DNA from: an uncultured Pseudomonadota bacterium | GTDB taxonomy: Bacteria > Pseudomonadota > Alphaproteobacteria > RF32 > CAG-239 | Direction: 5' to 3' | NCBI GenBank assembly: GCA_902785935.1 | Contig: CADAAN010000006.1 | Span: forward strand, 4,309-68,308 | DNA: 64,000 nt | In this document: one piece after another, positions 30,541 to 30,946 of the stretch | Position numbering within the stretch: the first letter of the stretch is position 1 | How the letters are laid out: every line of letters starts with the position of its first letter | Position numbers and translations under genes: made by a program | Notes under the pieces: model-generated | The model's input: the letters and a program-made list of their open reading frames with translations, nothing else | Databases searched by the model: none | Told to the model about the DNA's origin: nothing

Positions 30541-30830
30541 AATTTTTTCCCTTTTAAAGATGTTAATATAAAAAAGTTTAACCGCGCCTTTTTAAGTGCG
30601 GCGGGGAGTGAAGAAATCATGTAAACCTAAATGACTCTTGCAACCTTTAGAATAACTCTTGTACATCCTTTGCAAGCTCCCCAACCAAAACTTTGGGGAT
30701 AATCGGCATTTTATACAAAAACACCTTCAAAACAAACAGTGTTATCCGTCACTGAGGTTTACAAAAGCTTCTTCAAAGCTCCGCACCCAATACATAGGCA
30801 CTAAATGATAAGATTTCTCCCATCACTTAA
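30541..30830 (-). ncRNA. Conserved structured 5' leader, family B (copy B1), with intrinsic terminator before the ribosome binding site; candidate riboswitch/attenuator
   Basis: Promoter TTGACA-19-TAATAA near 30835-30866. Conserved blocks tgcggRgcttt, cagtgaSRgataacRctgt, ttatcccc...ggggag hairpin, ctaaaggtt, agtcatttt, catgatt, actccccgccgc, then a terminator. Confidence 0.6.
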
Positions 30831-30946
30831 GATTTATTAGAACACGTTTTGATTTAATTGTCAAATAAAAAAGCAAAATTTTATGTACTTTTACTTTTTT
30901 TTGAAGTATAGTAATGCCAGTTGAGGAAATATTTGGAAAAAAATAA

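What the first reader, a model, noticed from the sequence alone, without database searches (positions are those of the whole stretch)
30541..30866. Family B: a second, different conserved structured leader (about 250 nt, ending in a terminator) in front of two LRR genes and the pilin pair
Loci 30541-30830, 41677-41950 and 61231-61530 (all minus strand) align over about 230 nt with conserved blocks: tgcggRgYttt, cagtgaSRgataacRctgt, a ttatcccc(N6-12)ggggag hairpin with variable loop, ctaaaggtt, agtcatttt, catgatt, actcYccgMcgc. Each ends in an intrinsic terminator (ccgcac/gcgcgg, ccgctc/gagtgg, ccgctc/gggcgg with G-U compensation) plus T-run just before the ribosome binding site. The ggggag upstream block is complementary to the ctcccc/ctctcc 5' shoulder of the terminator: copy B3 has ctctcc with upstream gtcggggagcc, whereas B1/B2 have ctcccc with ttggggag, which looks like an antiterminator with covariation. 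This is the same target gene set as family A (surface LRR proteins and pilins) but a different sequence.
Basis: seen in the sequence. Interest (0 to 1): 0.9.

Follow-up and report, generated by a model that had tools for sequence, protein, structure and literature searches.

The report
Structured leader RNA before adhesin genes
A previously undescribed, elaborately folded ~260-nt RNA leader ending in a transcription terminator sits in front of surface adhesin (LRR) and pilin genes in uncultured gut/rumen Alphaproteobacteria, and most likely acts as a sensor switch deciding whether those genes are transcribed.

Summary
Three ~260-nt minus-strand leaders (30570-30827, 41697-41950, 61256-61511) share the listed blocks. 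Each has its own sigma-70-type promoter and ends in a hairpin plus U-run just before the RBS of a BspA-type LRR gene (two copies) or a type IVb pilin pair. I recovered 27 distinct copies from rumen/gut Alphaproteobacteria MAGs and metagenomes, all in front of secreted LRR proteins, pilins or one RHS-like protein. The fold has two 5' hairpins, a long closing stem, a five-way junction and a terminator. Covariation supports it strongly (96% of cells paired, 34/50 pairs compensated, 0/500 shuffles). It is strand-specific (131 G·U vs 25 A·C) and matches no Rfam 15 family or paper found. The same strand also pairs with a 5' GGRG block, and a second competitor helix (5' hairpin P0b with the terminator) co-evolves. 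"Family A" shares the outer chassis around a different core. Best reading: a new terminator-coupled sensor leader (orphan-riboswitch-like) defining an adhesin/pilin regulon. The ligand and the operative antiterminator remain unresolved.

The parts
30836..30864 (-). B1 promoter: -35 TTGACA (30859-30864), 17-nt spacer, TG-extended -10 TCTAAT (30836-30841)
   Evidence: Read. A TTGAC-type -35 box lies at the same distance in 25 of 26 assessable copies. The strict scanner does not accept it because the -10 box has C at position 2.
30804..30827 (-). B1 P0: 5'-terminal hairpin of the transcript
   Evidence: Folds. Pairs 16-19:39-42 are 97% paired and 3 of 4 are compensated.
30783..30801 (-). B1 P0b hairpin (GUGCCUA-UGUAU-UGGGUGC), flush with the base of P1. 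Its loop and 3' strand can instead pair with the terminator's 5' strand and loop (AT2).
   Evidence: 98.8% paired, 3 of 6 pairs compensated.
30779..30782 (-). B1 GGAG: 5' strand of the P1 base helix
   Evidence: Pairs 66-69:269-272 are 92.6% paired.
30756..30778 (-). B1 5' strands of P1a and P1b. With the GGAG block, this stretch can also form the local hairpin P1x (GGRGCU-loop-AGCYYY).
   Evidence: P1a is 91% paired. P1b is 100% paired with 7 of 7 pairs compensated. P1x forms in 27/27 copies.
30736..30755 (-). B1 P2 hairpin CAGUG-A(N)GGAUAA-CACUG
   Evidence: 92% paired. The GGAUAA loop is complementary to the UUAUCC flank of P4.
30703..30735 (-). B1 P3: variable hairpin with a U-rich loop
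   Evidence: Folded separately in 15 of 15 copies.
30677..30702 (-). B1 P4 hairpin UUAUCCCC-loop-GGGGAG, with an invariant C4/G4 core.
   Evidence: 98% paired.
30637..30676 (-). B1 P5: covarying stem with a conserved asymmetric internal loop (G.AUGU.CA.G / CUAAAG)
   Evidence: P5a is 96.8% paired with 8 of 8 pairs compensated. Invariant columns are listed.
30628..30636 (-). B1 J5/1: conserved junction strand AGUCAUUU
   Evidence: UCAU is invariant in all 27 copies.
30611..30627 (-). B1 3' strands of P1b and P1a, with the conserved AUGAUU internal-loop block
   Evidence: UGAUU is invariant.
30603..30608 (-). B1 CUCCCC: 3' strand of the P1 base. It can pair with either the 5' GGAG block or the internal GGGGAG block.
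30570..30602 (-). B1 terminator hairpin (GCCGCACUU-AAAA-AGGCGCGGU) followed by UAAACUUUUUU
   Evidence: It falls below the strict scanner's threshold.
29407..30540 (-). Regulated gene of B1: secreted BspA-type LRR protein (377 aa)
   Evidence: Pfam LRR_5, E = 2.4e-50. Signal peptide and shared C-terminal tail are visible.
41959..41987 (-). B2 promoter: TTGACA-17-AATAAT with a TG extension
   Evidence: 11 of 12 consensus matches.
41697..41950 (-). B2 leader, from P0 to the terminator U-run. P0b 41905-41921; P4 41800-41825; CUCCCC 41725-41730; terminator 41697-41724.
   Evidence: Covariance model score 237.5 bits.
40816..41673 (-). Regulated gene of B2: secreted BspA-type LRR protein (285 aa from the ATG at 41673)
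61519..61548 (-). B3 promoter: TTGACA (61543-61548), 18-nt spacer, TG-extended TAAATA
   Evidence: Read. The strict scanner does not accept it.
61256..61511 (-). B3 leader, from P0 to the terminator. P0b 61467-61483; P4 61360-61383; CUCUCC 61284-61289; terminator 61256-61283 with a weak U-run.
   Evidence: Covariance model score 245.9 bits.
59995..61230 (-). Regulated genes of B3: two tandem type IVb pilin genes (60649-61230 and 59995-60609)
   Evidence: Pfam PilS and Bundlin.

Best explanation
Family B is a cis-acting, terminator-coupled regulatory leader RNA: an orphan riboswitch-like attenuator.

Shown: Each copy is transcribed from its own sigma-70-type promoter, and the transcript starts with hairpin P0. 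A long closing stem (P1 base, P1a, P1b) encloses a five-way junction (P2-P5) whose conserved nucleotides sit in loops and junctions. The 3' strand of P1 (ACUCYCC) is followed after one G by an intrinsic terminator, 23-35 nt before the RBS in most copies. The downstream adhesin or pilin gene can therefore only be made by read-through.

Inferred: The junction core is a sensor. I favour a diffusible small molecule or second messenger, with a protein as second choice. When the core is closed (P4 and P1 formed), hairpins P0b and T flank the P1 base and transcription terminates. Read-through occurs when the terminator's 5' strand is captured by one of two conserved competitors. AT1 is the 3' strand of P4 (GUCGGGGAG) pairing with CUCYCC-GAC. 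AT2 is the P0b loop and 3' strand pairing with the terminator's 5' strand and loop, as a coaxial extension of P1.

My preferred wiring (about 0.35) is that opening of P4 frees GGGGAG to take CUCYCC and the bottom of the terminator, giving an OFF-when-closed switch. In that wiring the P0b/terminator complementarity forms a second bistable layer. The direction of regulation and the ligand are not shown.
For: Three window copies plus 24 other distinct copies came from a genome scan, a metagenome scan and loci fetched through LRR homologs.

Structure: 96.3% of cells are paired, against 81% shuffled and 40-47% slid. 34 of 50 pairs are compensated, and 0 of 500 shuffles reach the observed score.

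Sense-strand RNA: 131 G·U cells against 25 A·C cells. The sense strand folds better in 27/27 copies (mean MFE -92.7 vs -74.3 kcal/mol).

Promoter and terminator: a -35 box at a fixed distance in 25/26 copies, and a terminator in 25/27.

Gene association: all 27 copies lie upstream of, and on the same strand as, secreted LRR proteins, type IVb pilins or one RHS-like protein; one copy (L018b) has lost its gene. All 22 LRR_5 genes in the window and fetched loci carry a family A or B leader.

AT1: -12 to -18.5 kcal/mol in 27/27 copies. 87.4% of cells paired, 5 of 10 pairs compensated, 1-4 of 500 shuffles reach it. Cognate beats non-cognate pairing, p about 4e-5. At the decision point it is roughly isoenergetic with P4 plus the P1 base.

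AT2: it is the MFE of the truncated transcript in 11/15 copies. Cognate beats non-cognate pairing, p about 2e-5.

The sequence invariance of GGRG, CCCC, GGGGAG and CUCYCC, next to freely covarying P1b and P5, fits strands that each have two partners.

A natural variant (L030, compared with L029) cleanly deletes the P1 3' strand and the terminator. There is no conserved leader ORF.
Against: There are no expression data, so termination, read-through and ligand dependence are all inferred.

AT1 crosses P1a/P1b. In a nested fold it costs about +13.8 kcal/mol, so it needs either a sterically untested pseudoknot or a kinetic route. Its extension into the terminator is not significant on its own (p about 0.12).

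The extended-P1 'rod' of AT2 also ends directly at the U-run. It might therefore itself terminate rather than antiterminate.

Shuffle and permutation controls ignore phylogeny, and several copies are close relatives.

B1 and B3 have sub-optimal U-runs.

One copy (L018b) is intact but has no gene behind it. That is also compatible with a function of the RNA in its own right.
Confidence: 0.6

Rival explanations
1. Protein-dependent attenuation. The conserved junction and loops (AUGUNCARG/CUAAAG, AGUCAU, GGAUAA loop, C4/G4 hairpin) form the binding site of a dedicated RNA-binding regulator, which stabilises either the terminator or an antiterminator. Known examples of this kind include BglG/SacY-, PyrR-, ANTAR- and NusG-paralog-type systems. 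The RNA architecture is the same as in the best explanation; only the trigger differs.
For: The same anatomy as in the best explanation applies. A regulon of many scattered genes that all carry one of two leader types (22 of 22 LRR genes) is what a dedicated regulator protein per leader class would give. A GGA-containing hairpin loop (P2) superficially resembles CsrA-type sites.
Against: No candidate RNA-binding regulator lies next to any copy in the window. An element of about 190 nt with a five-way junction is far larger than typical protein-binding antiterminator targets. The P2 GGA loop is lost in B2, L003 and the B' subgroup without loss of the rest of the element. No RAT-like or ANTAR-like dual hexaloop pattern is present.
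Confidence: 0.2
2. An independent, stable small RNA gene. The unit of promoter, roughly 260-nt structured RNA and terminator would be a trans-acting or protein-sequestering RNA, with 5' and 3' ends paired in a long rod as in 6S or Y-like RNAs. The downstream genes would simply be expressed by leaky read-through.
For: The element has its own promoter and terminator. The extended rod that pairs P0b with the terminator is the full-length MFE in 6 of 15 copies, and this pairing co-evolves. Copy L018b is intact (256.9 bits) with no gene behind it.
Against: 26 of 27 copies sit directly upstream of, and on the same strand as, one functional class of genes. Usually only 23-35 nt, with no promoter, separate the terminator from the start codon. 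A cell would then carry a dozen or more diverged paralogous copies of one sRNA. A trans-acting RNA would not need to be duplicated in front of every target gene.
Confidence: 0.08
3. A constitutive 5'-UTR module with no sensing role. It would provide mRNA stabilisation or processing (5'-terminal hairpin P0, structured UTR) plus a fixed partial terminator that merely sets a low expression level.
For: P0 is a 5'-terminal hairpin. Terminator strength varies between copies, which could tune expression levels.
Against: This does not explain roughly 40 invariant nucleotides in loops and junctions of a five-way junction. It also does not explain the conserved mutually exclusive pairings, nor the existence of a second core (family A) on the same chassis.
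Confidence: 0.08
4. A DNA-level repeat: a MITE/REP-like mobile element or a recombination site for phase variation of surface proteins. The inverted-repeat ends would mimic an RNA stem.
For: There are multiple copies per genome. The ends are inverted repeats (P1, and P0b with the terminator). The targets are surface proteins, which are often phase-variable. GC-rich REP-like insertions do occur next to some copies.
Against: Orientation and position relative to the gene are fixed in all copies. Mean column identity is only 64%, with pervasive compensatory changes. There is a strong G·U over A·C asymmetry, and the sense strand folds better in 27/27 copies. A promoter and terminator are integral to the unit. 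No transposase or invertase is associated. The one 'viral' hit is a chance match.
Confidence: 0.02

Closest known systems
c-di-GMP class I and class II riboswitches controlling type IV pili and adhesins in Clostridioides difficile and Bacillus (PMC6366702, PMC4933901)
   Same: These are terminator-coupled 5' leaders in front of pilin and surface-adhesin genes. Two structurally different sensor classes serve one functional gene set in the same organism, as families A and B do here.
   Different: There is no sequence or structure match: no Rfam hit even at E up to 10. Family B's sensor is about 190 nt with a five-way junction, against about 85-90 nt. The ligand is unknown, and here the two classes share one chassis.
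Lysine riboswitch (L-box)
   Same: It is a large aptamer built as a five-helix junction closed by P1, followed by a terminator/antiterminator expression platform.
   Different: The conserved nucleotides differ and the Rfam model does not match. The gene association is entirely different (amino-acid metabolism against surface proteins). Family B has two extra 5' hairpins (P0, P0b) that take part in the expression platform.
T-box leaders
   Same: Both are long (over 200 nt), multi-helix leaders with a terminator that competes with an antiterminator. Both define a regulon of scattered genes through the RNA rather than through a DNA operator.
   Different: Family B has no T-box sequence, no Stem I/specifier architecture and no Rfam match. 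The regulated genes are unrelated to tRNA charging.
Classical four-segment attenuators (trp-type 1:2 / 2:3 / 3:4)
   Same: P0b (strands 1:2), the P1 extension (2:3) and the terminator (3:4) form the same logical triad of mutually exclusive helices.
   Different: There is no conserved leader peptide. Strands 2 and 3 are separated by a structured domain of about 200 nt that brings them together. Strands 1 and 4, and the two loops, are also complementary, so the alternative is a continuous rod.
'Family A' leader of the same genomes
   Same: It has the same promoter type and a 5' hairpin flush with GG.G, a two-segment covarying closing stem, C.CC followed by a terminator, and the same target genes (LRR proteins and pilins).
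   Different: Its core is about 60 nt with different conserved blocks (GAUAUAAG, CGAAUAAG, CUGN..CAGUU), against about 130 nt (P2-P5) in family B. It has no P0 hairpin. Its 5' hairpin is nearly invariant in sequence.

Membership tests
Any Rfam 15 family (including c-di-GMP-I/II, lysine, T-box, cobalamin, M-box, ROOL/GOLLD/HEARO) | The sequence scores at or above the family covariance model's gathering threshold. | tested here: not met
   The whole-window scan at gathering thresholds finds only two tRNAs. Permissive scans of B1 and B3 (E up to 10) give only noise below 19 bits.
Terminator-coupled riboswitch / attenuator leader (generic kind) | The element lies in the 5' UTR between its own promoter and the regulated ORF, on the same strand. 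| tested here: met
   A -35 box at fixed distance in 25/26 copies. All copies are upstream of and co-oriented with an ORF, except the decayed L018b.
Terminator-coupled riboswitch / attenuator leader (generic kind) | A conserved secondary structure supported by covariation, with conserved nucleotides concentrated in junctions and loops. | tested here: met
   96.3% of cells paired, 34 of 50 pairs compensated, 0 of 500 shuffles reach the score. Invariant columns are listed.
Terminator-coupled riboswitch / attenuator leader (generic kind) | An intrinsic terminator (stable hairpin plus U-run) lies between the sensor and the RBS. | tested here: met
   25 of 27 copies meet the criteria. The strict scanner accepts B2 only among the three window copies.
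Terminator-coupled riboswitch / attenuator leader (generic kind) | A conserved alternative pairing that is mutually exclusive with the terminator (an antiterminator). | tested here: inconclusive
   There are two candidates. Both beat their permutation controls, but AT1 needs a pseudoknot and AT2's rod also abuts the U-run.
Terminator-coupled riboswitch / attenuator leader (generic kind) | Direct, selective binding of a ligand by the RNA, with ligand-dependent termination. | not testable with these tools
   This requires in-line probing or ITC, and in vitro transcription.
Leader-peptide (ribosome-mediated) attenuator | A conserved short ORF in the leader whose translation controls the choice between hairpins. 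| tested here: not met
   The two conserved ATGs open ORFs of 3 to 33 codons with no conserved length or frame.
MITE / REP-type repeat | Near-identical copies in either orientation at arbitrary intergenic sites, with conservation at the DNA level. | tested here: not met
   Orientation and position are fixed. Mean column identity is 64% with compensatory changes. G·U outnumbers A·C 131 to 25, and the sense strand folds better in 27/27 copies.
Independent sRNA gene | The element has its own promoter and terminator, and the downstream gene has its own promoter. | tested here: inconclusive
   A promoter and terminator are present. There is no room for a separate promoter in most copies, where 23-35 nt separate the terminator from the ATG. 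Longer gaps filled with REP-like inserts occur in L003, L026, L029a and L031.

The most novel reading that the evidence does not exclude
Families B and A are two new riboswitch classes built on one shared expression chassis with exchangeable sensor cores. They would sense one or two signalling molecules and together switch the entire repertoire of surface LRR adhesins and type IVb pilins of an uncultured gut/rumen alphaproteobacterial lineage. That would be an RNA-defined adhesin regulon with a modular 'one platform, two aptamers' design and a multi-state (at least three competing helices) decision logic.
Probability: 0.3. Interest if true: 0.85.

Novelty: new member of a known kind. Interest (0 to 1): 0.68.

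Why it matters
If this is a sensor leader, it adds a large (about 190-nt, five-way-junction) orphan riboswitch-like class. Its regulon consists purely of surface adhesins and pili, in a host-associated lineage that has never been cultured. It would show that host-attachment genes scattered around a genome can be coordinated by RNA leaders rather than by DNA operators.

The pairing of two sensor cores with one chassis (families A and B) offers a natural experiment in how expression platforms are reused. The conserved competing helices (P1 base / AT1 / P1x, and P0b / terminator / rod) make it a good model for multi-state co-transcriptional folding.

Identifying the ligand would reveal which signal these bacteria use to decide when to display adhesins in the rumen or gut.

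Tried and rejected
1. Known family: Rfam at gathering and permissive thresholds found nothing.
2. Literature: the 2010 and 2017 motif catalogues and four full-text searches mention no LRR- or pilin-associated motif.
3. AGUGA:UCAUU extension of P1, predicted by RNAalifold with 15 sequences: rejected. L015 breaks it while compensating the P2 hairpin, and the 27-sequence consensus picks P2.
4. P2-loop GGAUAA with the UUAUCC flank of P4: complementary in 89.5% of cells but essentially invariant, with one compensated cell. It can be neither accepted nor rejected.
5. Leader peptide: rejected.
6. MITE or other DNA repeat: rejected.
7. Phage origin: one viral-contig pattern hit (L032) lies inside an ORF and has no model hit, so it is chance. 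L008, L012 and L013 from the metagenome scan were also chance hits.
8. Nearby regulator or pilus machinery in the window: none found.
9. My first loop-loop test mis-parsed three hairpins. I redid it by alignment columns.
10. My strict promoter regex missed TnTAAT-type -10 boxes. I replaced it with direct inspection.
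Full report
OBSERVATION. The three loci are real. The blocks are non-random: CAGTGANNGATAACRCTGT occurs twice against 0.11 expected. Each copy folds much better than its shuffles (z = -5.4, -7.2, -6.8). The downstream ORFs are two BspA-type LRR proteins and a tandem pair of PilS/Bundlin-type (type IVb) pilins. The window is ENA assembly ERZ28613383, scaffold_539. Its GC content is about 40%.

A FAMILY, NOT THREE PARALOGS. 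A pattern scan of one genome per GTDB species found four full-length homologs in rumen/gut MAGs labelled Alphaproteobacteria. A metagenome scan found nine more, plus three chance hits. Fetching DNA around homologs of the B2 LRR protein and scanning with nhmmer brought the total to 27 distinct copies (alignment A4). There is also one natural deletion variant. A covariance model built from A4 (R1) scores all copies at 164-259 bits.

STRUCTURE. The consensus is: P0 (5'-terminal hairpin), a CAAG spacer, then P0b (a hairpin flush with P1). P1 follows in three segments: base GGRG:CYCC, P1a and P1b. Inside it sits a five-way junction with four arms:
- P2: CAGUG-A.GGAUAA-CACUG.
- P3: variable stem with a U-rich loop, present in 15 of 15 copies when folded alone.
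- P4: UUAUCCCC-loop-GGGGAG.
- P5: a stem with a conserved asymmetric internal loop, G.AUGU.CA.G / CUAAAG.
After P5 come junction strand J5/1 (AGUCAU), the P1 3' strands (with a conserved AUGAUU block), ACUCYCC, one G, a terminator hairpin and a U-run.

On the structure-blind MAFFT alignment, 96.3% of 1337 cells form standard pairs, against 81% after shuffling and 40-47% when partners are slid. 34 of 50 pairs have changes on both sides, and no shuffle of 500 reaches the observed covariation score. P1b (7 of 7 pairs) and P5a (8 of 8 pairs) covary at every position. By contrast GGRG, the C4/G4 tracts of P4 and CUCYCC are nearly invariant.

RNA ON THE CODING STRAND. Paired cells include 131 G·U against 25 A·C. 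The sense strand folds better than the antisense strand in 27 of 27 copies (mean -92.7 vs -74.3 kcal/mol). A TTGAC-type -35 box, followed by a TG-extended -10 box, lies at a fixed distance in 25 of 26 assessable copies, so P0 is the 5' end of the transcript. 25 of 27 copies have a stable hairpin followed by at least 5 U in 8 nt. Only the B3/L010 ortholog pair is weak. The strict scanner accepts only B2 among the window copies. No conserved leader ORF exists. Together these results exclude a MITE or other DNA repeat, and a leader-peptide attenuator.

GENE ASSOCIATION. Every copy is upstream of and co-oriented with a signal-peptide gene. Most are LRR_5 proteins sharing a KRIYTVDEA...FSIRYR tail. 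Five are type IVb pilins (B3, L005, L010, L028, L023b) and one is an RHS/YD-like protein (L023c). One intact leader (L018b) is followed only by GC-rich repeats. The terminator-to-ATG distance is usually 23-35 nt, which leaves no room for another promoter. In the window and the fetched loci, all 22 LRR_5 genes carry either a family B leader (10 genes) or a family A leader (12 genes). The genes that were queried are a biased sample, but their neighbours are not.

COMPETING HELICES.

Internal GGGGAG is complementary to CUCYCC in 96.9% of cells. It extends through G273 into the first 2-3 nt of the terminator's 5' strand, for example GUCGGGGAG:CUCUCCGAC, GGAUCGGGGAG:CUCUCCGAUC and GGUUGGGGUA:UGCCCCGGCC. 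Duplex energies are -12.4 to -18.5 kcal/mol in all 27 copies. Formal counts give 87.4% paired against 84.5% shuffled (1 of 500) and 47-58% slid, with 5 of 10 pairs compensated (4 of 500). Cognate duplexes beat non-cognate ones (p about 4e-5), but the extension alone is not significant (p about 0.12). The C/U at that position covaries instead with the 5' GGRG block (A-U 11, G-C 8, A·C 7). AT1 crosses P1a/P1b, and forcing it in a nested fold costs +13.8 kcal/mol on average. If it can coexist with P1 as a pseudoknot, then before terminator strand 4 is made the closed state (P4 -12.1 plus P1 base -6.5) and the open state (AT1 -14.8 plus P2-loop:UUAUCC -4.6) are about equal. This is a crude estimate.

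(b) AT2. The loop and 3' strand of P0b pair with the terminator's 5' strand and loop as a coaxial extension of P1. This is the MFE of the transcript truncated before strand 4 in 11 of 15 copies. Cognate pairs beat non-cognate pairs (-8.86 vs -7.21 kcal/mol, p about 2e-5; cognate ranked first in 7 of 25). The two loops are complementary with different sequences in different copies (CCUUGAAU/AUUCAAGG, UUUGAUA/UAUCAAG, CUUUAG/UUAAAG), which stem similarity cannot explain. One caveat is that the fully extended rod also ends at the U-run and might itself terminate. Loop-loop docking of two hairpins is an alternative reading.

(c) P1x. A local hairpin GGRGCU-loop-AGCYYY forms in 27 of 27 copies (mean -5.7 vs -3.3 kcal/mol shuffled). 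It is compensated in B3 and competes with the P1 base and P1a.

(d) The P2 loop GGAUAA is complementary to the UUAUCC flank of P4 (89.5% of cells), but the pairing is almost invariant. In the divergent B' subgroup both motifs are lost together.

The invariance of the G-rich and C-rich strands, next to freely covarying stems, is what strands with two partners should show.

FAMILY A. Model R1 gives weak, full-span hits exactly on family A copies (E from 3.7e-5 to 6e-3 in a 279-kb search). The alignments match the outer shell only. Folded on its own 14 copies, family A shows a 5' hairpin flush with GG.G:C.CC, two covarying stem segments, a core of about 60 nt and a terminator. The two families therefore share a chassis and differ in the core.

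COMPARISON WITH KNOWN SYSTEMS. No Rfam 15 family matches. The large motif catalogues and full-text searches yield nothing on LRR- or pilin-associated RNA motifs. The closest functional analogy is the c-di-GMP class I and II riboswitches that control pili and adhesins in Firmicutes (PMC6366702, PMC4933901). The closest architectural analogies are the lysine riboswitch (five-way junction), T-box leaders (large, RNA-defined regulon) and four-segment attenuators. Membership of each is not met.

MECHANISM AND CONFIDENCE. Shown: a conserved, strand-specific RNA structure, a promoter, a terminator, a fixed position before surface-protein genes, and conserved alternative pairings that overlap the terminator. 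Inferred: attenuation, sensing, the direction of regulation and the trigger. I put about 0.6 on a cis-acting sensor/attenuator with a diffusible ligand as the most likely trigger. The rivals are a protein-dependent version of the same switch (about 0.2), an independent sRNA (about 0.08), a non-sensing UTR module (about 0.08) and a DNA repeat (about 0.02). Within the switch, AT1 and AT2 cannot be ranked with these data. Thermodynamics favours AT2, while sequence invariance and direct overlap with the core favour AT1.

LIMITS. The controls ignore phylogeny, and several copies are orthologs or recent paralogs. Collection-wide covariance-model searches were not possible, so the taxonomic range is a lower bound. 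No transcript or binding data exist.

Noticed in passing
window 16056-16232 (+); also 21510-21710 (-), 46014-46208 (-), 52868-53047 (-): There is a fourth window copy of 'family A' upstream of another LRR_5 gene (16266-17324). All five LRR genes and all three pilin loci of the window therefore carry an A or B leader. Family A shares the outer chassis of family B (5' hairpin, GG.G, two-part stem, C.CC, terminator) around a different core of about 60 nt.
   Followed up: partly
L030 6005-6268 compared with L029 9641-9903: The same locus in two samples: one has an intact leader, while the other has a clean deletion of about 60 nt that removes J5/1, the 3' strand of P1 and the terminator. This is a natural 'terminator-less' allele that would be expected to give constitutive read-through.
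   Followed up: partly
L018 15543-15810 (-) and downstream; also L029 about 9900-10000, L031 about 3840-3985, L026 about 9800-10000, L003/L007 downstream of the leader: One intact leader (256.9 bits) has no gene behind it, only GC-rich palindromic REP-like repeats and a 19-codon ORF remnant. Similar GC-rich inserts sit between the terminator and the RBS in several other copies.
   Followed up: no
window 29408-29481, 40817-40890, 45088-45161, 20595-20668: The LRR paralogs share a conserved C-terminal tail (…KRIYTVDEA..V..K.NTFSIRYR), which is also present in relatives from other MAGs. It may be a sorting or anchoring signal, and no Pfam domain covers it.
   Followed up: no
window 40816-41874 (-): An ORF stays open from inside the B2 leader into the LRR gene, and the public gene call (P0001, 337 aa) starts inside the leader. 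This is probably an annotation artefact. The start with an RBS is the ATG at 41673.
   Followed up: partly
window 42018-42161: Two tandem 72-nt repeats (75% identical) lie between nusG (42208-42741) and the B2 promoter. The LRR gene with its leader sits where the ribosomal-protein/rpoB genes usually follow nusG.
   Followed up: no
window 55491-56090 (+): An ORF built of 78-nt (26-aa) tandem repeats (…KELIKLYIS…; repeat family D1) has no Pfam match. Neighbouring 200-aa ORFs (57921-58523, 58638-59234) also have no matches.
   Followed up: no
window 1-9552: The first 8 kb has a lower GC content (0.30-0.33 vs about 0.40) and ends at a phage-type integrase gene (8395-9552). It may be an integrated element.
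   Followed up: no
window 9952-10001, 29246-29295, 59262-59311: A shared terminator-like repeat (AAAAAGCAACCCGCCGGC…) occurs at the 3' ends of three unrelated genes.
   Followed up: no
window 9998-12169 (-) and 18405-20579 (+): Two paralogous genes of about 723 aa encode acyltransferase + AMP-binding fusions (Aas-like).
   Followed up: no
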